Assembly: GCA_022821385.1 (NCBI GenBank)
Contig: JAJEDR010000056.1
Location: 28,038-92,037, forward strand
Length of the DNA stretch: 64,000 nt
Direction of reading: 5' to 3'
Source: Rhodothermales bacterium
Lineage (GTDB): Bacteria; Bacteroidota; Rhodothermia; Rhodothermales; Bin80
This document shows, in pieces, positions 9,907-46,718 of this stretch. Within the stretch, counting starts at the first letter, position 1. Each line of letters starts with the position of its first letter. The notes beneath the pieces were generated by a model. The model searched no databases. It was given only the letters and a program-made list of their open reading frames with translations, and was not told where the DNA came from. The translations under genes and the position numbers were made by a program.

Positions 9907-9911
9907 AGGGC

Positions 9912-10391: not shown

Positions 10392-10436
10392 GCGACCATA
10401 CCGCAACAGACTGCACATCATCTAGATAGACCGGAT

Positions 10437-20116: not shown

Positions 20117-20611
20117 CTACATGCCCAGACTCCCTCTCACTGCGTCCATCACATCCTCATCAATCTCTAAATAGCCCTGTTCACGGGCATAACTCTCGAC
20201 ATTCCGCTTGACCATAGGCCGGATATAGTGGGGAATTGCTTCAATGCGAGCCAGTGCCTCTGCCGTCCAGACAGGCTTTTTCGGTTCAGACTCCGCAGCC
20301 CCAATTGCGTCGTTGACCATCCCCGTGAAAGGACATTTACCACCTGTACCTGAGGGAGGTCCCTCTGGCGACTCCTCCTGGACCGATGCAAGATTTGATC
20401 GAAGGGTTTCCATGGGCTCCTCCGGTGTGGTTCGCCCGCCGATCCTTACACCCAGTGAGCGAACCATCTGGGTCTCGGCCCTGTTGGTCAACATCGCTGT
20501 CTGCACTGAACAGGTCGGACACTCATACACGATGGACATTGAGCCGTCAAATGGACCATGCGTAGACTTTAATGCCATTGGCTGGTCACAGGGAACACAC
20601 AAAAATTTCAC
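20117..20611 (-). CDS. Zn-ribbon plus PCP_red-domain protein (last gene of the bd-like operon)
   Basis: The N-terminal CVPC...CPTC ribbon is followed by a linker with a KCPFTG motif. The C-terminal VWTAEALARIEAIPHYIRPMVKRNVESYAREQGYLEIDEDVMDAV (nt 20138-20272) matches the BchB C-terminal PCP_red pattern W..eA...L..iP.f.R...r...E.yAr..G...It. The GTG start overlaps the upstream stop (GTGA at 20608-20611). Confidence 0.7.
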   Translation of the reverse strand: MKFLCVPCDQPMALKSTHGPFDGSMSIVYECPTCSVQTAMLTNRAETQMVRSLGVRIGGRTTPEEPMETLRSNLASVQEESPEGPPSGTGGKCPFTGMVNDAIGAAESEPKKPVWTAEALARIEAIPHYIRPMVKRNVESYAREQGYLEIDEDVMDAVRGSLGM

Positions 20612-21462
20612 TTTGATTGATTTTTAAGCCAGAAATGTACTCGTTGGGCTACATCCAGGATCGCATTGGCGGCCGGATGCCCCGCATGCACCTCAATGTA
20701 AGATCTGCCCGTCTCCAAAAAATCGGCAAGCGTAACATTGAACGGAATAGCGCCCAAATAGGGGACACCATGCCGCTCAGCCAGTTCCTCCACCGCCTCG
20801 GTCCCGATAAACATCTGCTCTTTACATCTACACTCCGAACAAATCATCGTACTCATGTTCTCAACCACACCGGCAATCCGCACATTCGCAACATTCAATG
20901 CCATCAAAATAGAACGGGAAACAACCGTCATCGCCGTCTGTGATGCCGTAGAAACAACAATTGCACCCGTCAGATCCGGTAACAGGTCCGCCAAATTCTG
21001 AAGCCGTTCGGCACCAGGGGGCAAATCTATCAGCAACACATCCAGATCACCCCAATCGGTGTCTGAAAGCAATTCCCGAAGTGCACTCATCTCAACCATT
21101 GAACGCCAAGTATAGGCGCCCTGCTGGGATGATGCTTCCCACACGAGCGGGGTTTCGTCCTCCGGCAAAAACATATCCATGGACATGACCGGCACACCGT
21201 ACGCGTTACGGGCAGCGATCATTGCACCATTTTTCGGTGACGGCTTATGGTCTCTTACTCCCATCATACGCGCCATGCAGGGCCCATTCAAATCTGCATC
21301 CAATACGCCCGTACGCACCCCCAACCTAGTCAGCCCATCCGCCAGACAGGCAGTCACAGTACTTTTTCCAACCCCTCCTTTTCCACTCATCACCGCGAAA
21401 ATACTCCCGATCCGCGCCAGACGCTCCTTTAGCCGATCGTGCTGCTGGGCAACTTGTCCCAA
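20608..21462 (-). CDS. Mrp/NBP35/ApbC-like P-loop ATPase (SIMIBI class; putative Fe-S cluster carrier)
   Basis: The deviant Walker A is SGKGGVGKST and DLPPG is present. A CSEC pair sits where Mrp proteins carry CxxC. Confidence 0.75.
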   Translation of the reverse strand: MGQVAQQHDRLKERLARIGSIFAVMSGKGGVGKSTVTACLADGLTRLGVRTGVLDADLNGPCMARMMGVRDHKPSPKNGAMIAARNAYGVPVMSMDMFLPEDETPLVWEASSQQGAYTWRSMVEMSALRELLSDTDWGDLDVLLIDLPPGAERLQNLADLLPDLTGAIVVSTASQTAMTVVSRSILMALNVANVRIAGVVENMSTMICSECRCKEQMFIGTEAVEELAERHGVPYLGAIPFNVTLADFLETGRSYIEVHAGHPAANAILDVAQRVHFWLKNQSK

Positions 21463-21503
21463 GACATCAGATCCTCCATCGGACGCTATATCGTGGTAGG
21501 TTT

Positions 21504-23438
21504 TCAGTTATCCGAGCCAGCTTGCGCTTGTTCCTGGATCATTTCCTCCATCAGCTTTATCCCTTCCTTTATCCCTTCCTCGGTGATTGCAAGCGTGATC
21601 AGGTTCGTCTTCGAGGCACGTGCAACCGCTTCTACACGTTCCTTGGTGCGTGTACGCATGAAGCCCTCCGGAACCCGGCTCAGCCGCGCACGGGCATTTC
21701 TTGCCCACAAAAACTCTCCATCTTGTAACAAGTCCTCTGCGGCCTTCCTGGTTGGGGCTTCACGTGAGCCATCAGCATACTCACCAACCGTCTTCAAATG
21801 TCCTCCAGGTGTGAGGTTCTGCAGTTCTTCGGCATTACCGGTCAACACCGCACGCACCATACCCAGCGTGATCGTGGGTACGCGCTGTACGCGTGCCCGT
21901 TTTTCAATCTGTGCCTTGGCCCGGCGCATCTGGTAGCCGTCAGGAACAGAACGAAGTTCTTTTAGTGCTTCCTTGGTCCATTGCAGGCGGACATCATCAA
22001 AGGTTTGTTGCTCCTGTGAACCACCCTCCAGTTTGGCCAACTGCGTGATCGCATCCTTGTCCAGCTTCTGGAATGCCTCCGCAGGGCTGCCACAAACGGC
22101 GCATCGCACGGGGTCAAAGTCACGCGCTGAATATCCACACTGACTGCAAATCCATGTTACAGAATCTCTGTTTGCGATTTCCTTGGCCGCGGTATCCTCT
22201 GCAATTATGCCCATCTTGATCATGGACGAGCGCGGCAGGATATTACCCATAGCCTGTTCAACTATCTTTCGGGTGATCACGGAATGTCCACGCTCCATGG
22301 CCCACCGATGAATTGTTGTGCGTGCGATGCCACGAGCGAAGTCGGGAGCAGTATTCAGGAGGCGTGTGGCAGGCTCCGTCCATAACATGGATTCCTCTGC
22401 GCTCACGTCTACAGGTGGCACATACCGCTTACTGGATAGCAAGATATTACATGGCGCTTGGCGGAGAAGATTCTCCGTGTTGCTCCCGATGTCCATATCC
22501 TCATCACTGTGCACCCCGATACGTCCCAGAACCAGCAGCCACGGCTCTTCACGCCTGACGTACTGCAGCATCTTCTCGAATGCCTTGCCGTCAAGCAAAG
22601 TGATCTTTAGATCTACCTCAGCTTCATCCGCAATTCGTCTGGCAATATCCAGATGTGACTGATATATCTTGGCAAGTCCGGTGTCAATAACCTCTTCGTG
22701 CAACTGCTCCTGCTCCTTGAACCTGAAGACCTTTGATGCTTTTTCCGTCAGCACGTTAACAATGCTGTTGAACATTGCATAATGCAGGTAGGGATCATAT
22801 ACCGACACCGCTTCAACCTGGCGCCCCGTTTTCTGACCAAGCTCAAGCGCAGTGCGCAGGCCCGCAAAAGACTCTGGACTGCCGTCAATTCCCACGACAA
22901 TATTGCCCTCGGGCTTTCCGTCAACGCTGATCGTTCCCGGATCAAGATTCTTGATCACCAAAGTGTCTGTGCGTACCCGACGGGTGACACGCTCACATAC
23001 ACTCCCTATGGTACTGTCCTTAACAGCCCCCAAACCCAGCGCACCCATGATAACGAGGTCATAGTCACTCTCGTCAATGTCCTGAGCAATCACCTTCCAG
23101 TTCTTGCCGTCATACATTTTCGGTTCAAACGGCACACCAGCGGCTTTACAACGCTCTTCTGCCACAACCAGGTAAGAATCACTGATGAGCTCGAGTCCCA
23201 TTGTGATCAACGTGTCGTGAATCTTGCGCTGCTTCTCCATCGCTTCCTCAATCAGGTATTCTTCTGGAAGCGTGTATTCCATTTGTTTGAAACGATAATC
23301 ATGCATACGTGCCGCGTACGCATGACTCGCTACAACCGTCGAATCAAATTGTCCAGCAAGGGATACCGCCATATCAATGGCACTGAGCGAATGCTCAGAA
23401 TTGTCAACCGGTACGAAAATCTTCTTGTACATGAGCAT
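21504..23438 (-). CDS. Multidomain protein: tandem universal stress protein (USP) domains, three PCP_red domains and a rubredoxin-like Zn ribbon
   Basis: USP-like units cover aa 3-165 and 178-336 (KKIFVPVDNSEHS and NIVVGIDGSPES). The PCP_red-like units are LWTEPATRLLNTAPDFARGIARTTIHRWAMERGHSVIT, LQWTKEALKELRSVPDGYQMRRAKAQIEKRARVQRVPTIT and FLWARNARARLSRVPEGFMRTRTKERVEAVARASKTNLIT (nt 21564-22385). The ribbon is WICSQCG..RCAVCG. Confidence 0.7.
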   Translation of the reverse strand: MLMYKKIFVPVDNSEHSLSAIDMAVSLAGQFDSTVVASHAYAARMHDYRFKQMEYTLPEEYLIEEAMEKQRKIHDTLITMGLELISDSYLVVAEERCKAAGVPFEPKMYDGKNWKVIAQDIDESDYDLVIMGALGLGAVKDSTIGSVCERVTRRVRTDTLVIKNLDPGTISVDGKPEGNIVVGIDGSPESFAGLRTALELGQKTGRQVEAVSVYDPYLHYAMFNSIVNVLTEKASKVFRFKEQEQLHEEVIDTGLAKIYQSHLDIARRIADEAEVDLKITLLDGKAFEKMLQYVRREEPWLLVLGRIGVHSDEDMDIGSNTENLLRQAPCNILLSSKRYVPPVDVSAEESMLWTEPATRLLNTAPDFARGIARTTIHRWAMERGHSVITRKIVEQAMGNILPRSSMIKMGIIAEDTAAKEIANRDSVTWICSQCGYSARDFDPVRCAVCGSPAEAFQKLDKDAITQLAKLEGGSQEQQTFDDVRLQWTKEALKELRSVPDGYQMRRAKAQIEKRARVQRVPTITLGMVRAVLTGNAEELQNLTPGGHLKTVGEYADGSREAPTRKAAEDLLQDGEFLWARNARARLSRVPEGFMRTRTKERVEAVARASKTNLITLAITEEGIKEGIKLMEEMIQEQAQAGSDN

Positions 23439-23456
23439 TAACGCGTAAACCGCGCA

Positions 23457-23786
23457 TCAATAGACATAAGGAATTCGATCACGCACATAACGAAGTCTAT
23501 CAATCACATAATCCATTTCCGGGCGGTCACTGATAGCGGCCACGTTCAATAACGCGGCGTCAAGAAAAGCTCCACACGAACCTCTCTCTTCTTCATCTGC
23601 CTTCTCTACACAGGCAATGAACCGCCTGAGTTCAAACCGTGTTTTGACCAATTGGTTACGTGTATCCGAGGAAGGATCCGCAACTGCAATGTGTCGGGAA
23701 AGTCGCCTGACCTCCAATCCGAGGATTGGAGGAACCATCTGACGAAACTGCTGCCAGGGTAAATATTGAATCTCGTTTTCAACCAT
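23457..23786 (-). CDS. Hypothetical 109-aa protein inside the operon
   Basis: The ATG at 23786 lies 2 nt after the ferredoxin stop (23779-23781). The listed ORF start at 23801 is a TTG. I saw no recognisable motif. Confidence 0.5.
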   Translation of the reverse strand: MVENEIQYLPWQQFRQMVPPILGLEVRRLSRHIAVADPSSDTRNQLVKTRFELRRFIACVEKADEEERGSCGAFLDAALLNVAAISDRPEMDYVIDRLRYVRDRIPYVY

Positions 23787-23997
23787 TGGCCGTCCGCGCA
23801 ACGGTTGAGACAGGCTCTTCTCTCATTTCGGGAATCGGCTGAATAGCATCAACCTCACAAAAGGCCAAGCACTCCATAAAATCTGTACACTCGGGCTCAA
23901 TCACGTAGATCGGATCGTCAACCCTTATAGCCTCAATTGGGCACATGTCTACACAATCACCACATGCCGTACACTCCTGCGTAATGTAGAATGGCAT
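23779..23997 (-). CDS. Small 4Fe-4S ferredoxin
   Basis: A CTACGDCVDMCP cluster motif is present, plus a second, degenerate CTDFMECLAFCEVDAI motif. Confidence 0.75.
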   Translation of the reverse strand: MPFYITQECTACGDCVDMCPIEAIRVDDPIYVIEPECTDFMECLAFCEVDAIQPIPEMREEPVSTVARTANG

Positions 23998-24000
23998 ATT

Positions 24001-25245
24001 CTAAACGAGGTGTATTGGTTTTCTGGAAAAGGCGGGCGCTGTACCAAATGCCTTGGACCGCTGCATACCACTGAGTGCGCCATTCATAACCTCAGTGGTG
24101 ATACTTGAAACGCCTTTGTTGCGAGCGTACGCTTCGACGCCTTTCCGCGTCTTGTTACGAATGAACGAAATAGGAATCCGCCCAAGACGCTCCTGGGCGG
24201 CCTGATCCCAATGCAGTACCGCCTCCGGCAAAGCTGCGCCCGTGGGCTGATAGGCGCAGCCGGGGTCTTCTGCCAAATAATCCCCCGTGGCAGCGAAGGC
24301 CCGACACCGACAACCGCCGCATAGATCTTTGAACTCACATGCACCACAGCGCCCCTTCAGGTTTGCCGTTTCCCTAAGTTCTGCAAAAACGGCGGAACTG
24401 TCCCAGATTGTCGTGAAAGACTCCTCCAGCACACTTCCAGCCACAACATCCATATAGGGACAGGGCGTAACATTTCCCTCCGGTGTAATTCTGCAGTATT
24501 CTGTTGCTGCCATGCATCCACCGCTTTCGAGCCCCCCGCGCCCCATAGCGTAGGCAATCTGCTTGAATTGGGGTGCACACTTGCTGCGTACCAACATGGG
24601 GCGATAGTCCTCCTGCAGATCGACCAGTCGCGTCAGCATGGCTTCCGTCGCCGCAGCCGAGAGATCAGTCATCCCTTGTCCCCGTCCGGTCTGCACCAGA
24701 AAATACAGATTGAACGACCATGCCCCATGATCCCGCGCAAAATCCAGAAGTGCGGAAATCTCGTCGTAGTTCTCTTCCATGACCGTTGTTTGCACGAGCA
24801 CTTCCAGCCCCTCTTCCCGACAGATTTCCAATGCGCGTACTGAGTGCTGCCAGGCATTACGTCCACCCCTGAATGCGTTGTGACGATCAGGATCAGCGGA
24901 ATCTATACTGATCCCGACTCCTTTGACGCCACACTCAACCATCTTGCGGGCAACAGCACGCGTCACAAGCACGCCGTTGGTACCCATCACGACCCACATG
25001 CCCATTCCGCTCGCGGTCTCCGCAAGATGGTAGATATCTTTCCGCAGGAGTGGTTCTCCCCCCGTCAATATCAGCATTTCAGTGCCGAGAGTCCGCATTT
25101 CACCAAGCAATGCTAGGCACTCATCGGTGGTCAGCTCCCGATCAGCGGCGCGTCCGGCAGACAAGTAGCAATGTGGGCACTGTAAATTGCATTTCTTGGT
25201 CAGATTCCACGATACGAGCGACGGTATGTACGTCCTCCTGTCCAC
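24001..25245 (-). CDS. Radical SAM/SPASM enzyme (NirJ/AhbC/AhbD/PqqE-like) with a C-terminal PCP_red domain
   Basis: The CNLQCPHC motif (nt 25168-25191) is CX3CX2C, and TGGEPLL is present. The SPASM-type Cys cluster is GRCGACEFKDLCGGCRCRAF. The C-terminal LHWDQAAQERLGRIPISFIRNKTRKGVEAYARNKGVSSITTEVMNGAL lies at nt 24073-24216. Confidence 0.8.
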   Translation of the reverse strand: MDRRTYIPSLVSWNLTKKCNLQCPHCYLSAGRAADRELTTDECLALLGEMRTLGTEMLILTGGEPLLRKDIYHLAETASGMGMWVVMGTNGVLVTRAVARKMVECGVKGVGISIDSADPDRHNAFRGGRNAWQHSVRALEICREEGLEVLVQTTVMEENYDEISALLDFARDHGAWSFNLYFLVQTGRGQGMTDLSAAATEAMLTRLVDLQEDYRPMLVRSKCAPQFKQIAYAMGRGGLESGGCMAATEYCRITPEGNVTPCPYMDVVAGSVLEESFTTIWDSSAVFAELRETANLKGRCGACEFKDLCGGCRCRAFAATGDYLAEDPGCAYQPTGAALPEAVLHWDQAAQERLGRIPISFIRNKTRKGVEAYARNKGVSSITTEVMNGALSGMQRSKAFGTAPAFSRKPIHLV

Positions 25246-25248
25246 TGC

Positions 25249-26784
25249 TTAAGCGGTTTTCCTGCGACGCGCCCGTAAATTCACCAGGGCCACAATCAAC
25301 AGCTCTGCCCCCAACACAATCAGGAACCACTTTGCCATGGGGAGCACCGCAGATTGCGTCTCCATTGGTTGCAGATACAGATGGTACCACGCCGAAATCC
25401 CACGCTTGTTGCCTCGCTCCCCGTTAAACCCGTCCCATACAGTAAAAGAAATCGGGACAAACGTCGCTTCCGACATCGTCAACTCTCCCCGGCTACGAGG
25501 ACCCTTGAACTGGACGGTCCAAACCCCATCTTCGTAGCTAGCAGATCTTTCCAGGGCGATCCCGTTATCAGCGATCCGCCCCGACCCCTGCCCCGTTAAC
25601 ACCGCAGCTGAATCCGTAGCAAGATCCGTGTACCAGATACTCATCGGAAACCTGCTGTCTCCAAACATGAAGTACGGGCGTTCCAGTCCCTCTGGCGTAC
25701 GGGACGGCAGGAGTGCTGCCACTGCATCCGACCACCCATCCATTAGCGTATCCGGCTGTGCCGGATCAAACATTGGCACCTCAATCCCCGGGTTATTCAT
25801 GCCTTCGGTTTCTGCGGTCATATCGTGCCACTGCAGCTGGATTGCGATCTCTGATTCGTTGTAAACCGCCTTAACACTTATGCCATTGACGCCGGGATAG
25901 AAAGCACGCCCAGGCTCAATTATCTGGCCTACGATCGGAAAATACGTTTCAGGTGCTGCTTCAAAAAGACTATCGCCCAACACGAGTTCACCCGACCGCC
26001 CCTGCACCGTAACCGTCGTACCATAGTCCGGGGTATCTCTCGACAGCGACCATACATAATCCACTAAAGCCCACCGATCCTCCTCGTCAATCGTTTGCTC
26101 ATACGAAGGCATCGGCGTCCCATTCAGACCAGTCATGAAGGTCCGATATATATCCTCACGTGTAGCACTGGCTCTGAATGTCCAGCGCTTGGTCATGTCT
26201 GCCGCTCGAATAGGGTATCCCCAGTCATCCACGAGTTCTGGGGCGCTCTCGCCATTTCCGCGGCCGTTCTCGCCATGACAGTCGGCACATTGATTGGCTT
26301 CAAATACCTCTCGCCCACGTGCCAAGTGGTCCGGGTCTGCTGAATATGAGGGCGCACGCGGGATCTCTACCACCGTAGGATTGCCGTACGGCCCATCAAA
26401 AGCAGACTCAAATGTCTTGAGGTAATAGGCTAGGTTGGTGATTTCCGTCTCTGACAGGATCCCTTCCCAGGCAGGCATACTCGTATACGGCATCCCGAGG
26501 CGAATACTCCGCTTGATATCTTCTGTGGTGGGAAGTTCGCCGCTCGCTGTGGAACGGAACTTATAGTTGCCCGAAGTAAAATCTCTCGGCGTGGGGCGCA
26601 GGTAGGGCGTCGCCACGGCACTAGCATCTCCCTCATAGCCATGGCAGTGCGCACACTTGATATCGTAGACTTCCTTGCCCTCAGCGCGTTGCGCCTCAGT
26701 GCCAAGATCGTTCTCCTGTTGTGCAACCGCAGGGTTAGCGATGTACACCAGCAATAAAGTCAGCAAAATTCGCATCCTCGTCAT
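25249..26784 (-). CDS. Dihaem c-type cytochrome fused to an EB_dh-like (ethylbenzene dehydrogenase gamma / type II DMSO-reductase haem-b subunit-like) domain, C-terminally membrane anchored
   Basis: A signal peptide is present. The haem motifs are CAHCH (nt 26641-26655) and CADCH. A ~230-aa beta-rich domain contains WHDMTAE...FTVWDGFNGERGNKRGISAWY. The C-terminal TM helix is WFLIVLGAELLIVALVNL. Confidence 0.7.
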   Translation of the reverse strand: MTRMRILLTLLLVYIANPAVAQQENDLGTEAQRAEGKEVYDIKCAHCHGYEGDASAVATPYLRPTPRDFTSGNYKFRSTASGELPTTEDIKRSIRLGMPYTSMPAWEGILSETEITNLAYYLKTFESAFDGPYGNPTVVEIPRAPSYSADPDHLARGREVFEANQCADCHGENGRGNGESAPELVDDWGYPIRAADMTKRWTFRASATREDIYRTFMTGLNGTPMPSYEQTIDEEDRWALVDYVWSLSRDTPDYGTTVTVQGRSGELVLGDSLFEAAPETYFPIVGQIIEPGRAFYPGVNGISVKAVYNESEIAIQLQWHDMTAETEGMNNPGIEVPMFDPAQPDTLMDGWSDAVAALLPSRTPEGLERPYFMFGDSRFPMSIWYTDLATDSAAVLTGQGSGRIADNGIALERSASYEDGVWTVQFKGPRSRGELTMSEATFVPISFTVWDGFNGERGNKRGISAWYHLYLQPMETQSAVLPMAKWFLIVLGAELLIVALVNLRARRRKTA

Positions 26785-26787: not shown

Positions 26788-27621
26788 TTAATGCGGCATG
26801 CCCTGCGCCCGTGGTTCGAATCCGGTGAACTCATATAGAAATATGATCACATCCCAAATCTCTTCTTCCGTAAGAAAATCTTCCCATGCCGGCATTGCGC
26901 TTGACCATGGCGTTGATTCCGACGGTAGTCCCGGAGCTCCTTTTGCAATTCGCCAGAACAGATAGGACTCCTGGAGCATTGCGATAGTCGTTGCATCATT
27001 GAAGTTTGCCGGAAGCGGGTCATACCCATGCGCAAACATCCCGGCCCCCTCCATATTATCCCCGTGACAGTAGAAACAGTTCTCAAAGTAAATCCGCCGT
27101 CCATTAGCAACATGCTCTGCAAAGGCTGCTTCATCCGTATGCTGGAGCTCACGGATGGGGTTATTGGCGGTTGTCAGATTAATCGAGGTGCCCTGAAAGG
27201 TTATTGAGGACGGGGGTGGCGGGTGTATCGTGCGACCACTGGAAGGTGGCTGCGGCGCCTCGTTCATACTGGCAAAGATCCAGGCAGCCACTGCTCCTGG
27301 AATCACTAACATAACAATCAGCAATGCAACCCTATACTGACGGGTCACCATGAAGCGTACGATAGATTCCTTGGCCTGCTTCAGCTCTTCATTATCCGCC
27401 GACAGATACGCAACCAGCGCAATCGTGATGATCGCCATGAACAGCACGATAATTGAATTCGGCAGCGGCGGATTAATGCCGTACGAGAAAGCGGCCCACA
27501 GCGCAGCCCACCATATCCCCATCCAGGCTAGACGATTAAGCTTGACCCAGCGTGTCACCACGAACTGGATCAGAACCATCGCTGCTGCTATCGCAAGAAG
27601 CATAAAAAGATTCATGGACAA
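26788..27621 (-). CDS. Membrane-bound monohaem cytochrome c (4 N-terminal TM helices)
   Basis: The hydrophobic N-terminal half is followed by a CFYCH haem motif and a class I cytochrome c-like tail (MPAWEDFLTEEEIWDVIIFL). Confidence 0.75.
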   Translation of the reverse strand: MSMNLFMLLAIAAAMVLIQFVVTRWVKLNRLAWMGIWWAALWAAFSYGINPPLPNSIIVLFMAIITIALVAYLSADNEELKQAKESIVRFMVTRQYRVALLIVMLVIPGAVAAWIFASMNEAPQPPSSGRTIHPPPPSSITFQGTSINLTTANNPIRELQHTDEAAFAEHVANGRRIYFENCFYCHGDNMEGAGMFAHGYDPLPANFNDATTIAMLQESYLFWRIAKGAPGLPSESTPWSSAMPAWEDFLTEEEIWDVIIFLYEFTGFEPRAQGMPH

Positions 27622-27641: not shown

Positions 27642-28433
27642 CTAAAGCGAAGCTAGATAATCTACCAGGGCCTGCAGTTCCGAAGCAGATACCTGTTCAT
27701 GAAAACCGGTGGCATCAAGCATGGCGGTCATTACCCCGGCAACAAAGCCCTCAGTTACTGTTGCATCTGGGTCCACAATAGCTTCGTAGATTTCCGCCTT
27801 GGACATGCGTCCACCCAAGCCTTGAAGCGTTGGTCCAGCAGCCGCTGTACCATCAAGGGTATGACAGGTATTACACAGGTACGCCGCGAACAGTGTTTCT
27901 GCATCCCGATTCCCCCCTACCGCCGCCGGAGCAACGTCCTGTGATGCAGGCGCTTGGCCCTGCCATTCAAGTTGCGTATCCATCGTAACCGTCGGTGTTC
28001 CGCCAAGAGATTGCAGGTAGGCAATCACGGTGAGTATCTCCTGATCTGTAAGTGCAATCGGCGGACGGGCAACGTTGGGCATTCCGGCCACATAACCTTC
28101 CAGAACGTACGCGTTCGGATCATACATGGACTCTGCCAGATAGTAAACATCACTTTGCCCCGCAACACGTTCTCCAGCTATAGCACCAATACCGGCCAGA
28201 TCCGGGAAACGCAACCCGGTTCCATGGTCGCCCATTGTGTGGCACGTCAGGCAGGTCCCTTTGCCGGCCACAATTTCCTCACCAATGGGAATCATCTCCT
28301 CTGTAGTAAGATTGGCGCCAATCTCTATATCCTCAGGCGGCTCTGTTCGCTTCTGTGGTACCCACAAACTGACGTACCAATAGAAAACGCTGACCACAAT
28401 GGTGAATCCAAATATTTTCAGGGCCTGTTTCAC
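27642..28433 (-). CDS. Membrane-anchored dihaem cytochrome c
   Basis: An N-terminal TM anchor is followed by the CLTCH and CNTCH motifs, each with a distal Met region. Confidence 0.8.
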   Translation of the reverse strand: MKQALKIFGFTIVVSVFYWYVSLWVPQKRTEPPEDIEIGANLTTEEMIPIGEEIVAGKGTCLTCHTMGDHGTGLRFPDLAGIGAIAGERVAGQSDVYYLAESMYDPNAYVLEGYVAGMPNVARPPIALTDQEILTVIAYLQSLGGTPTVTMDTQLEWQGQAPASQDVAPAAVGGNRDAETLFAAYLCNTCHTLDGTAAAGPTLQGLGGRMSKAEIYEAIVDPDATVTEGFVAGVMTAMLDATGFHEQVSASELQALVDYLASL

Positions 28434-28460: not shown

Positions 28461-30236
28461 TTAAGAATCTATAGGTGCGGATGCTTCCGCTTTACTCCAT
28501 CGAGAACCCGATTTGGGTTCCCAATCCTTTCGACCGGAAAGTCCGGCCAGGAAGAAAACAATCGCGATCAACAGGAAGAAAACAATAACAATCGCGCTCA
28601 CAACACCCCCAGCATAACCCAGTGTGGGGGTAAACGCATCTACGGAGGTGTCGCGTACTACACCATACACATGCCAATGCTGACGCATACCAGCACGAAC
28701 ATAGCCCATGAGGCCCATCAGCCAGGTAAACGTGATCGCCAGGAAGAAAAGGGCATACTGCGATCGAGCCGAAATTTTTCCCCACACGATTTCCCCGCGG
28801 GACTTTGCATTCTTGAACAGGAAAATATCAATGACCGTCACAGATATCATCGCAAACAATACAGACATCACCTGTGGCTGACTCAGTCCAATACGCGTTT
28901 GGGCATCCACAAAGTACCCGTAAACACCCAGAAATACGACGTAGATCACCACTGCAGCAAATATGCCGAATTGAACCCAGTTCCCGGTCTTGGCCCACGA
29001 AACGGTCGCCTCCTTGTTCGCACGCCGATAGAGCAGGAAGCTGACATAGGTTGTGAGTATGAGCAGGTTAACCGCGGTATTCTTCGCGCTCATCACACCC
29101 AGAACATTCAGTATAGGATGATGTGAACCTCCCATTGCGCGGGCCTCTTCCACCGTCGCAACAAGCGAATGCGGGGTTGCCCACACGATAAAACAAAGCG
29201 TAATGATGCCCAGAAGGTATTTGATAAACCCTCGGAAGCGTTCTGCCCCCGGTATCCGGGCCATGCTTAGCCACAGATAGTAGTTGGCCGCCAGGAACAG
29301 GTTACCAATCAGTACCGCCTGCACGATAAACAACCACGAGAACGTACCTCCCATCAACGTGATTCCAAGGCTCTGGTCGTACGCGTAAATCTCAACCCCC
29401 AACCAGTAACCCGCAAACGGGAGGGGCAGCAATGCACAAATGGCCACAAAAATACCTATGTACCCCATCCAGTCGTAATGAGCCCGGGCCTCCAGTGTTT
29501 TCGCGCCCAAAAATTTGAAGGCGCCGTAAGCTGCCCCGATAGCTCCCCCAAAAGCCACATTGGCAATAATCCGGTGGATGTTGATGGGCATCCAGATGTA
29601 ATTGTTGATTGCCTCCCAGATATTGGTCAGGTTGCCCATCTCGTCAATTCCATTGGGCGTGTTCATGAACGTCAACCAGGCATTGGCAATGAACATGATC
29701 GCCGTGCCCACGATGTTGAGCATCACCCCTAGGAACAAGTGCAGGCGGGGGGAGAGTTTCCCCCAGCCGTAGTAATACGCGTAGAGGAAAAACGCTTCAA
29801 GAAAGAACAGCAGGACATACGGTAAAAAGGTCCAACTGAATATCTTGACCAGATATTGGGTAAGCGCTGGATAAAAGACGATCAGCCCGAAGGTAAGCAG
29901 CGCACCCAGGGTTGCCGTGAATGAGAACGACACCGAAAGCAACTTCGTGAAATCGTAGGCCAGTTGGTCATAGCGCCGGTCCCCCGTCTTGTAGCCGATG
30001 AACTCAATGACGAGCGCAAAAATGGGAACTGCTAACACAAACGCTGCAAACATCAAATGCAACTCGGCGACCGCCCACATAAGCACACGGCTGCTTATGA
30101 AAGGCAGCGCCCTGTACTCGGGATCGGCCTCCTGGGGGGCAGCCCAGGCTGACTCAGAACACAGAGCCACTAACACCAATACGAGGATTCCCAGAGGAAT
30201 CCTCAGCATCCACGATCTTCGATCAATTGTCAGCAT
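28461..30236 (-). CDS. Cytochrome bd subunit I (CydA)-family membrane protein, non-canonical (no CydB partner, no long Q-loop)
   Basis: Four motifs resemble canonical CydA motifs: AVAELHLMFAAF (His19 region), FFLEAFFLYAYYYGW (FFLES..FFFGW), NAWLTFMNTPNG (N.WMQ.P.G) and HRIIANVAFGGAIGAAYGAF (His186 region). GMRQHWHVYGV resembles GRQPW.VYG. I count about 13 TM segments plus a signal-like N-terminus. Confidence 0.75.
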   Translation of the reverse strand: MLTIDRRSWMLRIPLGILVLVLVALCSESAWAAPQEADPEYRALPFISSRVLMWAVAELHLMFAAFVLAVPIFALVIEFIGYKTGDRRYDQLAYDFTKLLSVSFSFTATLGALLTFGLIVFYPALTQYLVKIFSWTFLPYVLLFFLEAFFLYAYYYGWGKLSPRLHLFLGVMLNIVGTAIMFIANAWLTFMNTPNGIDEMGNLTNIWEAINNYIWMPINIHRIIANVAFGGAIGAAYGAFKFLGAKTLEARAHYDWMGYIGIFVAICALLPLPFAGYWLGVEIYAYDQSLGITLMGGTFSWLFIVQAVLIGNLFLAANYYLWLSMARIPGAERFRGFIKYLLGIITLCFIVWATPHSLVATVEEARAMGGSHHPILNVLGVMSAKNTAVNLLILTTYVSFLLYRRANKEATVSWAKTGNWVQFGIFAAVVIYVVFLGVYGYFVDAQTRIGLSQPQVMSVLFAMISVTVIDIFLFKNAKSRGEIVWGKISARSQYALFFLAITFTWLMGLMGYVRAGMRQHWHVYGVVRDTSVDAFTPTLGYAGGVVSAIVIVFFLLIAIVFFLAGLSGRKDWEPKSGSRWSKAEASAPIDS

Positions 30237-30406: not shown

Positions 30407-31579
30407 ATGCTCCAAAAATTTGACGCGTGGCTTGACGAATATCGTGAAATTGCCTTTGACCTGATCCGTATCTATCTGGGCATCGGCCTGTTTGCACGAG
30501 GGATTCTTTTTTTGTTTGACGCATCAACGCTCGTGGCGCTTCTACCAGAAGGCGCACCGGCGTGGCTTTCCGAAAGCTGGGTGCATCTCTTCGTAGCCGG
30601 GTTTCACATGGTAGGCGGACTGCTGATCACAGCCGGATTCTGGACACGCATCGCCGCCCTCTCCCAGATTCCCATTCTTTTTGGAGCAGTGTTTTTGAGT
30701 CTGGGAAGTTTGTTTTCGGCAAACCAGTCGCTGGAACTGTCCTCGCTAGTGCTCTTCATGTTGCTCCTGGTCGTGATCTGTGGATCGGGGAACTGGAGCC
30801 TTGATCGACTGATCGGGAATTCCCCGAACGATTTACGGCAACTGCTGGCCAAACTGTATCGCTTCCGTGCACACGCCTTTGATCTTCTGCGTATGTACCT
30901 GGGGCTCGGCCTGCTTATCCGGGGCATGCTATTCATTGCGGATGCAAACAGCTTCATGGACCTCATCGGCGCGAATTCATCGGCTATGCTACGGTCTAGC
31001 GTTCTGCTGCACTATGTTGCACTGTCGCACTTGCTGGGCGGTTTCATGCTGCTGACCGGACTGCTTTCACGCGTTGGTGCACTGATCCAGATTCCCGTCC
31101 TCGTGGGGGCAGTGTTTGTTGAAGAGATGGCCGGGGGGCTGACCGCGGGTACACAGGGCTTTGAGATCGCCATGCTGACCCTGTTCCTGCTGATCCTGAT
31201 CTTCCTCTACGGATCGGGCCAGATCTCCAGCGATCACTATTTCTTCAAGCGAACCAGCGGACCTACGCCAACGCGCACCACCGTGACCGGGCAGGCGGCG
31301 GAGATCCTTAGTCAGGATGTACCAAAGGATCGTGAATTCGCAAACCCAGTCGACATTCTTGCAGTCCCGGAGGCATTGACCTCCGAAGAATCCATCAAGG
31401 AAATCATCTCAAACCCCTATATCGTGTCCCAGGCTCGATACAGTTTCTGGGGCTGGGCCTTGTTCCTGATGGATGTGACCCCGCAGCCAAAAGAGATTGT
31501 GTTCCGAGATGTCCACAGTGGACAGATTCTGCGTCGCAGCAAGGACCCCAGCGTCATCCAACAATTCAGATACCGATAA
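30407..31579 (+). CDS. Tandem DoxX-family membrane protein with a C-terminal soluble extension
   Basis: Two similar ~135-aa units are present (FDLIRIYLGIGLFARG...HMVGGLLITAGFWTRIAALSQIPILFGAVF and FDLLRMYLGLGLLIRG...HLLGGFMLLTGLLSRVGALIQIPVLVGAVF). Confidence 0.75.
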   Translation: MLQKFDAWLDEYREIAFDLIRIYLGIGLFARGILFLFDASTLVALLPEGAPAWLSESWVHLFVAGFHMVGGLLITAGFWTRIAALSQIPILFGAVFLSLGSLFSANQSLELSSLVLFMLLLVVICGSGNWSLDRLIGNSPNDLRQLLAKLYRFRAHAFDLLRMYLGLGLLIRGMLFIADANSFMDLIGANSSAMLRSSVLLHYVALSHLLGGFMLLTGLLSRVGALIQIPVLVGAVFVEEMAGGLTAGTQGFEIAMLTLFLLILIFLYGSGQISSDHYFFKRTSGPTPTRTTVTGQAAEILSQDVPKDREFANPVDILAVPEALTSEESIKEIISNPYIVSQARYSFWGWALFLMDVTPQPKEIVFRDVHSGQILRRSKDPSVIQQFRYR

Positions 31580-37567: not shown

Positions 37568-38941
37568 CTACATAAGCCAACGCAAACTGGCAAAGAGTGA
37601 CGCCAATACTCCCAGGGTTGCAAAGGCCGGATTGATCAAGTTTGCTCGAAGGGGCGGCCCGTAGATTCGCGGCATCAGCAAGTAGAAGACCATTGCCACG
37701 ATGCCTATGGCCAACAGACCGAGTCCTAGATCGCTCAAAAGGCCCAGAACCTCGGAGCCCGAAGCGTCGAAATCCATCTGACCTGTTCCTCGGGCGAAGG
37801 GGATGAGCAACGTTGGAACATAGATGAGCATCCAGCCGAGCCCTATCGCACCGATCAGCCGCACCGAACGGCGTCCCCGTTCGGGCTGGAGACTGATCCG
37901 TGAGACACCGTAAAGAGAGAGTTGGGCCGCAAACGTAGTGGCGAACGGTATAAGCAACCATCCCTCCTGGGCGATAGAATGAACAAATAGCCAGAGGAGT
38001 GCACCGCCGGCAATTGAGAGCATAGTGTATACAGTGTGGGAGCGTCGCTCGCTTGAGCGCGGCCACGCCAGCGTATGGATCACAAAAAAGACGAACGGAG
38101 CTATGAGCCACTGCCAGCCGCCCAGTGCAAAGGCCGCGTAGCCGAAAAGCGCACAACCAATGAGTGCACTGTCATCAAGCTTGCTGCGATACCGCCAAGC
38201 CAATGCAAACGCACCAAAGATGATGGCAGCCAACAGGCGGAAGAGGAGCAGCTGGGCGTCCTGATCGAGGTAGAGACGCAGAAATGCATGCGCACCTAGG
38301 GGAATGAAAAAATTGTCCAACCCGCGCCATGCCACAAGCTCAAGCATCATGACGAGGAGCGCAAGGATCGTCGCGATGAGAACGGCCTCCGCACGACCCG
38401 TGTCGGTCAAGAGTAGAAGCGGAAGGTGAGCGCTAAAAAATGCCACGAGGAAGAATGCCAATGACCCCTCAATGCTCTTGTAGCCATCCGAGGTCTTGTA
38501 TTGCGTTTGCCCGTAGCGAATACCCACCAGAGCTGCAACTGCATCAGCCAGCGCCAGCGTAAGGATCGGAACGACGTAGAGCAACCACTCGCCTTGGCTG
38601 ACTATGAAGAGCAGCGTGACCGAAATCGGGTAGTAAATCTCGCCGAGGCTGTCCCGGCCTACGCCGCCCAGAACGGTTCCAATGCCGCTGCGCAAGTTGC
38701 GGATTGACCGCGTTACCAACAAGGCCGTACACGCGAGTACGGCCAGCACGACCATCGGCCATGCCTGATCAAATACCCACGGTAGCGGAAGAACGACCAA
38801 CCCCATGCCGACATGGACCCCCTTGCGGAGAACCTCAGGATGAAAACGACTCCTCTTCTCCACTGCCTTGAGACCAACCAAAAGCACAGCGAGCGCAGCC
38901 AGCACGGCCGCCATGGCAAGGAGGTTTGATACGAGTGTCAT
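37568..38941 (-). CDS. Polyprenol (phytol/dolichol) kinase / CdsA-like CTP-transferase-family membrane protein with an extra ~240-aa C-terminal membrane domain
   Basis: RKGVHVGMG and LADAVAALVGIRYGQTQYKTSDGYKSIEGSLAFFLVAFF resemble the G-D-x-x-A-x-x-x-G...K-S-x-E-G motif of the VTE5/SEC59/CdsA family. Confidence 0.55.
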   Translation of the reverse strand: MTLVSNLLAMAAVLAALAVLLVGLKAVEKRSRFHPEVLRKGVHVGMGLVVLPLPWVFDQAWPMVVLAVLACTALLVTRSIRNLRSGIGTVLGGVGRDSLGEIYYPISVTLLFIVSQGEWLLYVVPILTLALADAVAALVGIRYGQTQYKTSDGYKSIEGSLAFFLVAFFSAHLPLLLLTDTGRAEAVLIATILALLVMMLELVAWRGLDNFFIPLGAHAFLRLYLDQDAQLLLFRLLAAIIFGAFALAWRYRSKLDDSALIGCALFGYAAFALGGWQWLIAPFVFFVIHTLAWPRSSERRSHTVYTMLSIAGGALLWLFVHSIAQEGWLLIPFATTFAAQLSLYGVSRISLQPERGRRSVRLIGAIGLGWMLIYVPTLLIPFARGTGQMDFDASGSEVLGLLSDLGLGLLAIGIVAMVFYLLMPRIYGPPLRANLINPAFATLGVLASLFASLRWLM

Positions 38942-38955
38942 CTATGCACGACAGT

Positions 38956-40092
38956 TCAATCAGGAGCTGAGCCATCTGCACGGCGGCCCGCTCCTGCTGT
39001 GACTGTTTCGACAACAAAACGGCTGTAGAAGAACGCCTTGTCTTGGAGATGAAGCCTCTCGGCAAGCTCCGTGTGCGAATTAAGGGTATGGGACAACTCC
39101 GGTGGACGACTGCGAGGCACCAGCATGTTCCAGTACGCGAATCGCGCCCCGTCGCGCGAGCGTGCGGCTAGTTTTGAGAGCAGCTCATGAAAATTCTCGT
39201 CGGACATGTATTCGAAAATGTCGCTAAGGTTGTAGCAGTCGACTCGAAGTTCAGGCTCGGACGCGAGAAGTTCCTCAATCGACATACAATGCCATTCCAG
39301 CCGGTCCAGATTCTCCCGGATGACGTCGAAATTCTCTCTCCTTAATGCATGCGGAAGAGCCGTGGTGTGACGGCCGGTGAGTATCCACTGGAGGTAGGGG
39401 TTGGCCGCGGGGTCGAGTTCGGTAAGAGCGTGCTTTGCGCGCGCAAGGATCCGTTCCGAAACCGAACCCTCGACATAGCGGAAAAAGGCCGGATCCCGTC
39501 CCATCCTACCCATTACGAAGCGAGAAAAGAAAAGTCGAAAAAGGAATTCCCAGCGCCGGTTGGCCCAGTGCCGATCGTAGAAGCGACGGCGTTCCTCTGC
39601 AGTGCCTCCGGCCAGAAGTCGCTCGACTCGTTGCCGGGAATGGATCCAAGGCAGTATCTTGTTACGAAAGGCCGCGAAGTACTCCTCGAACTTGCCGGCG
39701 GAGCCGATGCCGGCTCGGACGAGCTGCGGGCGAGCGTCCCAAAAGGCCCGGGCTTCGGCTTTGAGAACACCGCGGCACCGTAGATAAAGTGCTTCCCGAT
39801 CGTCGCATTCCCGCGAACCGATCAATTGAAGAAGCTGGTCGTGGTTAAGCACCCGATAGGCCGCGACTCGCAACTCGAGGCATGCCAATTGGGCTGGATT
39901 CATATCGACAGCTATCACACGGGCCGGACTACGTGAAAGTAGTGAGAGTGAGTTTTCCCCCGCCGAAGCAATAGAAAGGCAGACATCCCCTTCTTTGACG
40001 CCAAGTGCTTCCAAGAGGATATCGGCGTCCTCCCAGCACTGTGCATAGCGAATGAACGAGAAGTCGGCGCGGGCTGCTGCTTCAGTACTCAT
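38956..40092 (-). CDS. BtaA/DUF3419-family protein (SAM-dependent 3-amino-3-carboxypropyl transferase-like)
   Basis: IRYAQCWEDADILLEAL and the SAM-fold motif VCLSIASAGENSL are present. The start overlaps the upstream stop (ATGA at 40089-40092). Confidence 0.65.
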   Translation of the reverse strand: MSTEAAARADFSFIRYAQCWEDADILLEALGVKEGDVCLSIASAGENSLSLLSRSPARVIAVDMNPAQLACLELRVAAYRVLNHDQLLQLIGSRECDDREALYLRCRGVLKAEARAFWDARPQLVRAGIGSAGKFEEYFAAFRNKILPWIHSRQRVERLLAGGTAEERRRFYDRHWANRRWEFLFRLFFSRFVMGRMGRDPAFFRYVEGSVSERILARAKHALTELDPAANPYLQWILTGRHTTALPHALRRENFDVIRENLDRLEWHCMSIEELLASEPELRVDCYNLSDIFEYMSDENFHELLSKLAARSRDGARFAYWNMLVPRSRPPELSHTLNSHTELAERLHLQDKAFFYSRFVVETVTAGAGRRADGSAPD

Positions 40093-46642: not shown

Positions 46643-46718
46643 AGTCGCTCACGTTAAACGACAAATAACAGTTTCATTGCAGGTTCACACACGACAACAT
46701 TAGCCACCCTGTACTGGA

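What the first reader, a model, noticed from the sequence alone, without database searches (positions are those of the whole stretch)
28461..30236. CydA homologue with conserved haem-site motifs but a remodelled architecture
Motifs equivalent to the canonical His19 region (AELHLMF), the Glu99 region (FFLEAFFLYAYYYGW), N.W...P.G (NAWLTFMNTPNG), the His186 region (HRIIANVAFGG) and GRQPW (here GMRQHW.VYG) are recognisable. The protein nevertheless differs from canonical CydA. It has a cleavable-looking N-terminal signal, about 13 TM segments rather than 9, and only short loops where the quinol-binding Q-loop should be. From memory, comparative-genomics work has noted bd-like CydA families lacking CydB and associated with c-type cytochromes, without biochemical characterisation. 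This would be such a member.
Basis: partly seen in the sequence, partly recalled or inferred. Interest (0 to 1): 0.7.

Follow-up and report, generated by a model that had tools for sequence, protein, structure and literature searches.

The report
Cytochrome bd-like oxidase, OR-N2 type
This gene encodes a known but never purified relative of the cytochrome bd oxidase subunit CydA (the "OR-N2" or "bd-like" type), which lacks the quinol-binding loop and CydB and sits in a strictly conserved operon with three c-type cytochrome genes; it is one more member of a family already described by comparative genomics, not a new kind of enzyme.

Summary
The ORF at 28461-30236 (-) is real and is a true CydA homologue (Pfam Cyt_bd_oxida_I, E 9e-26, N-terminal half of the profile only). 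Foldseek's ten best PDB matches are all CydA chains.

It matches every residue-fingerprint position I could check of the "OR-N2" subfamily of Murali, Gennis & Hemp (2021), also called NIDE0901-like or bd-like clade I:
- 14 hydrophobic helices, no Q-loop, no CxxCH.
- His19, Glu107, His126, His186 and the RQxW Trp are kept.
- Glu99 is Tyr, Glu445 is Ala, and Phe114/116 are Tyr/Tyr.

The operon holds three cytochrome c genes, one fused to an EbdC-like haem b domain. The 64-kb window contains no cydB and no second cydA.

One motif label is wrong: "FFLEAFF" is the Glu107 region, not Glu99.

At least 592 species genomes carry a relative that is 64% or more identical. The four-gene core is syntenic in 69 of 69 loci examined.

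The most likely function is a cytochrome c-fed terminal O2 reductase. This is inferred and has never been shown for any member.

A cluster that travels with the operon deserves follow-up: an AhbD/NirJ2-like radical SAM gene, several PCP_red-domain genes and an Mrp gene.

The parts
28461..30236 (-). OR-N2-type bd-like CydA, 591 aa. It has 13 TM helices plus an N-terminal signal or anchor, no CxxCH and no Q-loop.
   Evidence: ORF. Pfam PF01654 E 9e-26. PDB CydA hits. Fingerprint compared with Murali Suppl. Table 6. Topology.
30141..30236 (-). Codons 1-32: N-terminal signal-like segment MLTIDRRSWMLRIPLGILVLVLVALCSESAWA|APQ.
   Evidence: Sequence. AxA/AxG sites in close relatives and anchor-like segments in distant ones. 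Cleavage was not tested.
29379..30092 (-). Residues 49-286: the part homologous to canonical CydA TM1-5. It holds H60 (=His19), Y140 (=Glu99 position), E147 (=Glu107), Y154/Y156, H166 (=His126) and H221 (=His186).
   Evidence: Pfam envelope. hhalign aligns residues 49-212 with E. coli 8-177. MAFFT with E. coli CydA. All these residues are invariant in 57 family members.
28770..29378 (-). Residues 287-489: family-specific helices (about TM7-TM11) that replace the Q-loop and TM6/7 region. Invariant periplasmic-side residues include H356, E364, H372, H373, M382, K385, N386 and R448.
   Evidence: No significant match to canonical CydA here.
28539..28769 (-). Residues 490-566: the last two TM helices with YVRAGMRQHWHVYG. 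This is the GRQPW-like motif, with A515 at the Glu445 position, W521, and H520/H522.
   Evidence: The offsets agree with S563/W569 of the OR-N2 reference.
27642..28433 (-). Dihaem cytochrome c, 263 aa, with an N-terminal TM anchor (CLTCH, CNTCH).
   Evidence: Pfam Cytochrom_C. CxxCH and TM counts. Always the next gene, in 69/69 loci. Naturally fused to the CydA-like protein in P0121 and P0122.
26788..27621 (-). Membrane protein, 277 aa, with 3-4 TM helices and a C-terminal monohaem cytochrome c domain (CFYCH).
   Evidence: Present in 69/69 loci in the same position.
25249..26784 (-). 511 aa: signal peptide, dihaem cytochrome c domain, EB_dh (EbdC / type II DMSO-reductase gamma-like, haem b) domain and a C-terminal TM anchor.
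   Evidence: Pfam EB_dh 8.7e-11 and TIGR03477 1e-15. Residues 34-248 match PDB 6h5l_B at 5.7e-48. Present in 69/69 loci.
24001..25245 (-). Radical SAM/SPASM enzyme of the AhbD/NirJ2 (tetrapyrrole-modifying) type with a C-terminal PCP_red domain. Its start is 3 nt after the preceding stop. Candidate accessory or maturation gene.
   Evidence: TIGR04055 345 bits and TIGR04545 300 bits, both below the 500 cut-off. Pfam. Near the operon in 39/56 loci. Same type in Acidobacteriota and Gemmatimonadota.
23457..23801 (-). 114-aa protein with no family match. Conserved next to the Usp-PCP_red gene in Rhodothermales and Calditrichia.
   Evidence: 21/56 loci.
21504..23438 (-). 644 aa: two Usp domains, three PCP_red domains and a rubredoxin-like zinc ribbon.
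   Evidence: Pfam. Near the operon in 50/56 loci.
20608..21462 (-). Mrp/NUBPL-type P-loop NTPase (iron-sulfur cluster carrier family).
   Evidence: Pfam ParA/NUBPL 6e-66. Present in 37/56 loci.
20117..20611 (-). 164-aa protein with a C-terminal PCP_red domain. It overlaps the previous gene by 4 nt.
   Evidence: Pfam. Present in 35/56 loci.

Best explanation
The gene encodes the catalytic membrane subunit of an OR-N2-type 'cytochrome bd-like' complex from an uncultured Rhodothermaceae bacterium.

Shown:
- It keeps the CydA N-terminal helices with the His19 equivalent (H60), the Glu107/His126 proton-path residues (E147, H166) and the His186 equivalent (H221).
- It has lost the Q-loop, the quinol-binding residues, Glu99 (now Tyr) and Glu445 (now Ala).
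- It has gained about four TM helices and an N-terminal signal or anchor.
- It has no CydB partner gene nearby.
- It is always followed by three membrane-anchored cytochrome genes carrying five haem c motifs and one EbdC-like haem b domain.

Inferred:
- The four proteins form one complex of about 19 TM helices.
- Electrons from a periplasmic donor (soluble cytochrome c or a periplasmic dehydrogenase) pass along the c and b haems to a low-spin haem at H221, and then to the active-site haem at H60 near the periplasmic face.
- O2 is reduced to water there, with protons drawn from the cytoplasm through the E147/H166 path. This would build membrane potential by charge separation, not by pumping, as in canonical bd oxidases.
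- The downstream AhbD/NirJ2-like radical SAM, PCP_red and Mrp genes probably mature or supply a cofactor for the complex.
For: Homology and fold.

Fingerprint: identical to OR-N2 in Murali et al., Suppl. Table 6, with consistent offsets (H60, Y140, E147, Y154, Y156, H166, H221, M382/N386, A515, W521).

Operon content: as described for OR-N2.

Synteny: the order cydA-like, dihaem c, TM-monohaem c, dihaem c-EB_dh is kept in 69/69 loci from Rhodothermales, Calditrichia, Acidobacteriota, Fibrobacteria, Myxococcota, Opitutales, Spirochaetaceae, Gemmatimonadota and KSB1.

Natural fusions: the CydA-like protein is fused to the dihaem cytochrome in P0121 and P0122, which argues for physical contact.

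Topology: the predicted topology obeys the positive-inside rule. It puts H60, H221, H356, H372/373 and H520/522 on the periplasmic side and H166 on the cytoplasmic side.

Constraint: 64-99% identity across phyla, so the gene is under strong purifying selection.

Literature: the family is proposed as the terminal oxidase of Nitrospira and Nitrospinota, and its gene cluster was at the 98th expression percentile in Ca. Manganitrophus.
Against: - No member of OR-N has been purified, assayed or solved. As of 2024-2025, 'experimental confirmation ... still lacking' and oxygen affinity was 'unknown', and no OR-N chain is in the PDB.
- The canonical ligand of the second active-site haem (Glu445) and Glu99 are missing, so a bd-like di-haem O2 site is not assured.
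- Homologues occur in the nxr cluster of the strict anaerobe Kuenenia.
- The AF2 model is only moderate (pLDDT 68), and coordinates could not be inspected. No haem geometry was checked.
- Complex formation was not modelled.
Confidence: 0.6

Rival explanations
1. The complex is not an oxidase. It is a membrane electron-transfer module that links periplasmic cytochromes or type II DMSO-reductase-family enzymes to the quinone pool, like an alternative complex III or for reverse electron flow. The CydA-like subunit would serve only as a haem b scaffold.
For: - Lucker et al. 2013 raise this possibility and note the gene in the nxr clusters of Nitrospina, Nitrospira and anaerobic Kuenenia.
- In a Gemmatimonadaceae locus the operon directly follows genes for an Nxr/Nar-like molybdoenzyme, an FeS subunit, a NarJ-like chaperone and a cytochrome c-EB_dh subunit.
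- The EB_dh domain is the usual docking and haem b subunit of such enzymes.
- Glu445 and Glu99 are lost.
- A divergent DoxX-DoxX membrane protein gene lies upstream in close relatives.
Against: - All known quinol-binding residues and the Q-loop are absent.
- No molybdoenzyme is near the operon in the window or in most loci.
- The residues kept most strictly, His19, Glu107 and His126, are those of the O2 site and proton path.
- DoxX is present in only 11/69 loci.
Confidence: 0.2
2. It reduces or detoxifies a different small molecule at the His-ligated haem, such as NO or H2O2, using cytochrome c electrons. It would not serve as a respiratory O2 reductase.
For: - Canonical bd oxidases also act in NO and O2 detoxification.
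- The remodelled active site (Tyr for Glu99, Ala for Glu445, a cluster of invariant periplasmic His residues) could change substrate preference.
- The family is present in anaerobes.
- Universal-stress-protein domains occur in the co-conserved accessory gene.
Against: There is no positive evidence for any alternative substrate. The proposal that Nitrospira relies on this family for respiration, and its very high expression in Manganitrophus, fit O2 better.
Confidence: 0.15
3. It is a canonical quinol-oxidising cytochrome bd subunit I, as automatic annotation says, with its cydB partner simply missed or encoded elsewhere.
For: Public annotations call relatives 'cytochrome ubiquinol oxidase subunit I'. 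Pfam PF01654 is hit.
Against: - The Pfam match covers only profile positions 2-240 of 418.
- There is no Q-loop and no K252/E257, and Glu99 and Glu445 are lost.
- No PF02322 or CydB-like ORF occurs among the multi-TM ORFs of the window.
- 81 of the related loci show no second cydA-like hit and two show only a partial one.
- cydB itself was searched for only in the window, not in the related loci.
Confidence: 0.03

Closest known systems
OR-N2 subfamily of the cytochrome bd superfamily (Murali, Gennis & Hemp 2021, bioRxiv 10.1101/2021.01.16.426971). The same group is called NIDE0901-like bd-like oxidase in Nitrospira (PMC12342949) and bd-like clade I / TO_1 in Ca. Manganitrophus (10.1101/2021.11.15.468770).
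   Same: - 14 predicted helices.
- His19, Glu107, His126, His186 and the RQxW Trp kept.
- Tyr at Glu99, Tyr/Tyr at Phe114/116, Ser/Ala at Glu445, Met/Asn at the proposed Met393 site.
- No Q-loop.
- Operon with several cytochromes c plus an EbdC-like haem b subunit.
- Often no second CydA.
   Different: - Only 35-49% identical to the Nitrospirota-type members sampled (P0129, P0146, P0160).
- It lacks their 4-5-residue insertions.
- The window's clade is the stand-alone arrangement. In the Nitrospira-type arrangement OR-N2 is paired with OR-N1 and Rieske/cytochrome b genes.
- Its host is a heterotrophic-lineage Rhodothermaceae bacterium, not a nitrifier.
Canonical quinol-oxidising cytochrome bd, CydA of E. 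coli bd-I (6rko_A) and Geobacillus (5doq_A), the qOR1/qOR3 types.
   Same: - TM1-5 fold and sequence.
- His19 and His186 ligands.
- Glu107/His126 proton-path residues.
- GRQPW-like motif near the C-terminus.
- N-out, C-in topology.
   Different: - No Q-loop or quinol site.
- No CydB or CydX.
- Glu99 is Tyr and Glu445 is Ala.
- About four extra TM helices and an N-terminal signal or anchor.
- Electron input presumably comes from c-type cytochromes.
OR-C family (bd-like CydA with fused haem c domains).
   Same: Both lack a quinol site and both presumably use cytochrome c as electron donor.
   Different: OR-C has 8 TM helices and CxxCH motifs in the CydA polypeptide itself, and it keeps Glu99. 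The window protein has 0 CxxCH and 13-14 helices. Only rare relatives (P0121, P0122, P0150) are fused to cytochrome c.
Gamma subunits of type II DMSO-reductase-family enzymes (EbdC, NxrC, DMSO_red_II_gam TIGR03477), and the dihaem cytochrome chain 6h5l_B of a Kuenenia HAO-type complex.
   Same: The 511-aa subunit has an EB_dh haem b domain (E 1e-15). Its dihaem domain matches 6h5l_B at E 5.7e-48.
   Different: Here both domains are fused in one membrane-anchored protein and encoded with a bd-like oxidase. They are not encoded with a molybdoenzyme or an HAO.

Membership tests
OR-N2 (cytochrome bd superfamily) | Homology to CydA in the first four to five TM helices | tested here: met
   Pfam PF01654 E 9e-26, residues 49-286. 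hhalign aligns residues 49-212 with E. coli 8-177. Foldseek's top 10 hits are all CydA.
OR-N2 (cytochrome bd superfamily) | His19 equivalent retained | tested here: met
   H60 aligns with E. coli H19 and Geobacillus H21. Invariant in 57/57 sequences.
OR-N2 (cytochrome bd superfamily) | Tyr at the Glu99 position, Glu107 retained seven residues later, Tyr/Tyr at Phe114/116 | tested here: met
   Y140, E147, Y154 and Y156. All invariant. The reference has Y183/E190/Y197/Y199.
OR-N2 (cytochrome bd superfamily) | His126 and His186 equivalents retained | tested here: met
   H166 and H221 are invariant. The offsets fit the reference H213/H269 once the reference's insertions are allowed for.
OR-N2 (cytochrome bd superfamily) | Glu445 replaced by Ser/Ala, Trp six residues later, Met/Asn at the proposed Met393 site | tested here: met
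   A515, W521, M382 and N386 lie at exactly +294, +300, +161 and +165 from the His186 equivalent, as in the reference.
OR-N2 (cytochrome bd superfamily) | 14 predicted TM helices; no Q-loop or quinol-binding residues | tested here: met
   Hydropathy and AF2 secondary structure give 13 helices plus 1 N-terminal segment. K252 and E257 have no counterpart and the loops are at most about 22 aa.
OR-N2 (cytochrome bd superfamily) | Operon with multiple cytochromes c and an EbdC homologue | tested here: met
   Three downstream genes with 2+1+2 CxxCH motifs and an EB_dh domain. Syntenic in 69/69 loci.
OR-N2 (cytochrome bd superfamily) | Phylogenetic placement inside the OR-N2 clade relative to the authors' reference sequences or HMMs | not tested
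   The reference sequences (e.g. TKS59798.1) and the authors' HMMs could not be fetched. The only indirect evidence is 49% identity to an OR-N2-like gene in an OR-N1/Rieske/cytochrome b cluster.
OR-N2 (cytochrome bd superfamily) | O2 reductase activity with a non-quinol donor | not testable with these tools
   Never shown for any member.
Canonical cytochrome bd (qOR) subunit I | Q-loop with quinol-binding residues between TM6 and TM7 | tested here: not met
Canonical cytochrome bd (qOR) subunit I | Adjacent cydB (PF02322) partner | tested here: not met
   No tblastn hit with E. coli CydB. No PF02322 among the multi-TM ORFs of the 64-kb window.
Canonical cytochrome bd (qOR) subunit I | Glu99 and Glu445 at the di-haem active site | tested here: not met
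   Y140 and A515 occupy these positions.
OR-C (cytochrome bd superfamily) | CxxCH haem c motifs in the CydA polypeptide; about 8 TM helices | tested here: not met
   0 CxxCH motifs and 13-14 helices.

The most novel reading that the evidence does not exclude
The OR-N2 complex may use a tailored haem made or inserted by its own accessory system. That system would comprise the AhbD/NirJ2-like radical SAM-SPASM enzyme with a PCP_red (protochlorophyllide-reductase BchB C-terminal) domain, the Usp protein with three PCP_red domains, an Mrp/NUBPL Fe-S carrier and a small PCP_red protein.

These genes stay next to the operon across several phyla even though their order is shuffled. If the idea holds, this would be a terminal oxidase with a previously unknown haem cofactor and biogenesis pathway. 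It would also explain how the active site works without Glu99 and Glu445.
Probability: 0.2. Interest if true: 0.75.

Novelty: new member of a known kind. Interest (0 to 1): 0.35.

Why it matters
The OR-N "bd-like" oxidases have been the presumed but unproven terminal oxidases of Nitrospira, Nitrospina and Ca. Manganitrophus since 2010. Those organisms are slow-growing and hard to work with biochemically.

This window shows that a very similar stand-alone four-subunit version is strictly conserved in Rhodothermales and many other phyla, at 64-99% identity. That group includes Rhodocaloribacter litoris, which has a complete genome (79% identity) and, as far as I recall, is a cultured thermophile.

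Such a host would make the open question directly testable by purification, haem analysis and cryo-EM: does the complex reduce O2, from which donor, and with which haems? The gene itself adds no new principle.

Tried and rejected
- Promoter and terminator scan of 19.7-30.5 kb: counts equal to the shuffled expectation, so uninformative.
- hhalign of the family profile against E. coli CydA: only TM1-4 aligned, at probability 66%. The equivalence of the C-terminal RQxW motif therefore rests on the motif and on offsets only.
- The search for related loci with a divergent alignment failed because no conserved 7-10-column stretch was found. It was repeated with the close-family alignment.
- Literature search for PCP_red / PF08369 found nothing relevant. 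A search for OR-N structural or biochemical papers from 2022 on also found none.
- Contexts of two distant Nitrospirota-type relatives (P0285, P0160) turned out to be solitary genes and did not help.
- Tat export was considered because of 'DRRSWM' in the n-region. It was rejected because RR is not conserved outside Rhodothermales and a 13-TM protein is an unlikely Tat substrate.
- OR-C membership was rejected because there is no CxxCH.
- A pseudogene or decaying gene was rejected because of the intact ORF and extreme conservation.
The tool predicts single chains only, and the natural fusion proteins came from a source it does not accept.
Full report
**Observation**

The ORF at 28461-30236 on the minus strand encodes 591 residues. 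It is a genuine CydA homologue.
- Pfam Cyt_bd_oxida_I scores E 9e-26, but only residues 49-286 match profile positions 2-240 of 418.
- phmmer against the PDB finds only CydA chains: M. smegmatis bd-II 9r2g_A at 1.4e-14 and Geobacillus 5doq_A at 1.4e-11.
- An AlphaFold2 model built on 57 family sequences (pLDDT 68, pTM 0.69) has CydA of E. coli, Mycobacterium, Corynebacterium and Geobacillus as its ten best Foldseek hits in the PDB (E 2e-9 to 2e-6). CydB chains come far behind.
- No NCBIfam model names the protein.

**Residue-level check**

This uses the PDB alignments, a MAFFT alignment with E. coli CydA taken from NC_000913.3 and hhalign.

| E. coli residue or motif | Window residue | Result |
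|---|---|---|
| His19 | H60 | conserved |
| Glu99 | Y140 | replaced by Tyr |
| Glu107 | E147 | conserved |
| His126 | H166 | conserved |
| ANGW..NP | N185/W187/P194 | conserved |
| His186 | H221 | conserved |
| Glu445 | A515 | replaced by Ala |
| Trp of GRQPW | W521 | conserved |

- The spacing Y140-E147 is seven residues, the one-residue deletion seen in Geobacillus.
- The C-terminal motif match is not significant on its own (-2.4 bits).
- K252 and E257 of the E. coli Q-loop have no counterpart.
- The Met393 equivalent is unresolved. M382 is invariant and sits where Murali et al. put it. MAFFT instead pairs R448 with E. coli R391, which leaves Gly at the Met position.

**Architecture**

Hydropathy and the model's secondary structure give 13 TM helices after an N-terminal hydrophobic segment. 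The resulting topology is N-out after the first segment and C-in, and it obeys the positive-inside rule in every loop.
- H60, H221, H356, H372, H373, H520 and H522 fall on the periplasmic side. H166 falls on the cytoplasmic side.
- Residues 1-32 have the form of a Sec signal peptide with A-W-A|A. Close Rhodothermales relatives have similar AxA or AxG sites. KSB1- and Calditrichia-type relatives look like uncleaved anchors. Cleavage remains untested.
- The family-specific helices (about residues 287-489) occupy the place of the Q-loop and TM6/7.

**Surroundings**

On the same strand, with gaps of 27, 20, 3 and 3 nt, come these genes:
- a TM-anchored dihaem cytochrome c (28433-27642);
- a 3-4-TM protein ending in a monohaem cytochrome c (27621-26788);
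- a signal peptide, dihaem c, EB_dh and C-terminal TM protein (26784-25249);
- an AhbD/NirJ2-like radical SAM/SPASM enzyme with a PCP_red domain (25245-24001).

Then follow a 114-aa protein, a Usp-Usp-PCP_red x3 protein, an Mrp/NUBPL P-loop NTPase and a small PCP_red protein, down to 20117.

The dihaem domain of the 511-aa protein matches chain B of PDB 6h5l at E 5.7e-48. That entry is a Kuenenia stuttgartiensis HAO-type structure. From memory, it is the dihaem redox partner Kustc0457.

No cydB exists in the window. E. coli CydB gives no tblastn hit, and none of the multi-TM ORFs carries PF02322. No second cydA-like gene exists either.

**Relatives**

- More than 7,900 proteins match in the 5.8-billion-protein set. 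The best 120 are 72-99% identical and come from Rhodothermales, Calditrichota, KSB1, Latescibacteria and Gemmatimonadota.
- In the 50%-clustered library, 1,467 representatives match.
The window is 99% identical to an uncultured Rhodothermaceae MAG.
- In 57 sequences, 64% of columns are identical on average. H60, Y140, E147, Y154-156, H166, H221, H356, H372, H373, M382, N386 and H522 are invariant.
- tblastn of the window's proteins against 85 fetched loci shows the three cytochrome genes present and in the same order in 69/69 loci with enough downstream DNA.
- Among 56 loci with at least 9.5 kb downstream, the Usp-PCP_red gene is present in 50, the radical SAM in 39, Mrp in 37 and the small PCP_red gene in 35. 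Their order differs between Rhodothermales and Acidobacteriota.
- The radical SAMs of an Acidobacteriota and a Gemmatimonadota locus also score best to AhbD and NirJ2, below the equivalog cut-offs.
- Rare relatives are natural fusions: the CydA-like protein plus a TM helix plus the dihaem cytochrome (P0121, P0122), or an N-terminal cytochrome c fusion (P0150). These support physical association.
- A 49%-identical relative lies in a cluster with a second CydA-like gene, a Rieske protein and cytochrome b. This is the Nitrospira-type arrangement.
- Two Nitrospirota-type relatives are solitary genes.

**What is known**

- Murali, Gennis & Hemp (2021) split the bd superfamily into qOR, OR-C and OR-N.
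- Their Supplementary Table 6 lists for OR-N2: 14 TM helices, H19 kept, E99 to Y, E107 kept, H126 kept, F114/F116 to Y/Y, H186 kept, M393 to N/M, E445 to S/A, and Trp kept.
[quoted passage not shown] The main text notes that OR-N2 is often found without another CydA-like protein.
- Each of these listed positions is matched here. The offsets from the His186 equivalent to M382, N386, A515 and W521 are identical to the reference.
- Lucker et al. 2013 had already described 14-TM bd-like oxidases with a conserved N-terminal part, TM helices replacing the Q-loop and no quinol-binding residues. They called the function enigmatic and noted the gene in anaerobic Kuenenia.
- The NIDE0901-like protein of Nitrospira is OR-N2, and its oxygen affinity "still remains unknown".
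- In Ca. Manganitrophus the equivalent cluster (bd-like clade I, two cytochromes c and a periplasmic cytochrome b) was at the 98th expression percentile.
- The Nitrospinota study states that experimental confirmation of composition and function is still lacking.
- I found no structural or biochemical paper and no OR-N chain in the PDB.

**Mechanism**

Shown: the retained and lost residues, the topology prediction, the invariant operon, and the fusions.

Inferred:
- The four proteins form one complex.
- Electrons enter from the periplasm through five c haems and one b haem, and reach a haem at H221 and then the active-site haem at H60.
- O2 is reduced with cytoplasmic protons taken up through E147/H166, giving one charge per electron without pumping.
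- With Glu445 and Glu99 gone, the second active-site haem must be absent or held by another residue. The invariant periplasmic histidines (H522, H520, H373, H356) and M382 are candidates, but this could not be examined.

Rivals are a non-oxidase electron-transfer or quinone-linked module, and a reductase for another small molecule. Both remain possible because no member has been assayed. The "canonical quinol oxidase" annotation is refuted for this window.

**Verdict**

The gene is a new member of a known, uncharacterised kind.

The most useful new lead is outside the given coordinates. Tetrapyrrole-type radical SAM, PCP_red and Mrp genes are persistently linked with the operon. I did not find this linkage mentioned in the papers read, and it could point to a dedicated cofactor pathway.

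Noticed in passing
window 20117-25245 (-): A set of accessory genes follows the oxidase operon: an AhbD/NirJ2-like radical SAM-SPASM-PCP_red gene, a 114-aa ORF, Usp-Usp-PCP_red x3 with a rubredoxin-like ribbon, an Mrp/NUBPL ATPase and a small PCP_red protein. The set stays near it in Rhodothermales, Calditrichia, KSB1, Gemmatimonadota, Acidobacteriota and others, with shuffled order. It is not mentioned in the papers read. It may be a haem-tailoring or insertion system.
   Followed up: partly
window 30407-31579 (+): A divergently transcribed 390-aa membrane protein is made of two DoxX domains (weak DoxD similarity). It is conserved upstream of the operon only in close Rhodothermaceae relatives (11/69 loci). 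A link to quinones is conceivable but unsupported.
   Followed up: partly
L002/L003 (Gemmatimonadaceae metagenome scaffolds) 2061-9863: A type II DMSO-reductase-family gene set lies directly upstream of the OR-N2 operon: a 1183-aa molybdopterin subunit, a 428-aa FeS subunit, a NarJ-like chaperone and a cytochrome c-EB_dh subunit. A further cytochrome c/EB_dh pair lies before it. This recalls the nxr-linked bd-like genes of Nitrospina and Kuenenia.
   Followed up: no
P0121 (889 aa), P0122 (784 aa), P0150 (689 aa): These are natural fusions. In the first two, the CydA-like protein is followed by a TM helix and the dihaem cytochrome c. In the third, a Fibrobacterota protein, a cytochrome c domain sits at the N-terminus and the His19 and His186 equivalents are missing.
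   Followed up: partly
window 25249-26784 (-), residues 34-248: The dihaem cytochrome domain fused to the EB_dh domain is about 50% identical (E 5.7e-48) to chain B of PDB 6h5l, a Kuenenia stuttgartiensis HAO-type complex.
   Followed up: partly
L001 (Rhodocaloribacter litoris CP076718.1) 15447-16607: An IS605 OrfB/TnpB (Cas12f-like) gene is inserted between the dihaem c-EB_dh gene and the radical SAM gene. A small ferredoxin gene follows the radical SAM.
   Followed up: no
window 12365-17908 (+): An ORF of 1847 aa with no predicted TM segment and no Pfam match at E <= 0.001.
   Followed up: no
window about 38000-46700 (-): This stretch has higher G+C (0.57-0.59 against 0.51-0.53 elsewhere). 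It encodes DUF3419, a PPDK_N/PEP-utilizer protein, a UbiA prenyltransferase, HMG-CoA reductase and an AMP-binding enzyme. It looks like an isoprenoid or lipid-type gene cluster of possibly foreign origin.
   Followed up: no
L093 (JGI metagenome contig) 2946-12899: This cluster encodes a cytochrome c, a 567-aa CydA-like protein, a cytochrome c, a Rieske protein, cytochrome b, a 334-aa protein, a 620-aa CydA-like protein (49% identical to the window protein) and a cytochrome c. It is the paired OR-N1/OR-N2 plus bc-type arrangement described for Nitrospira.
   Followed up: no
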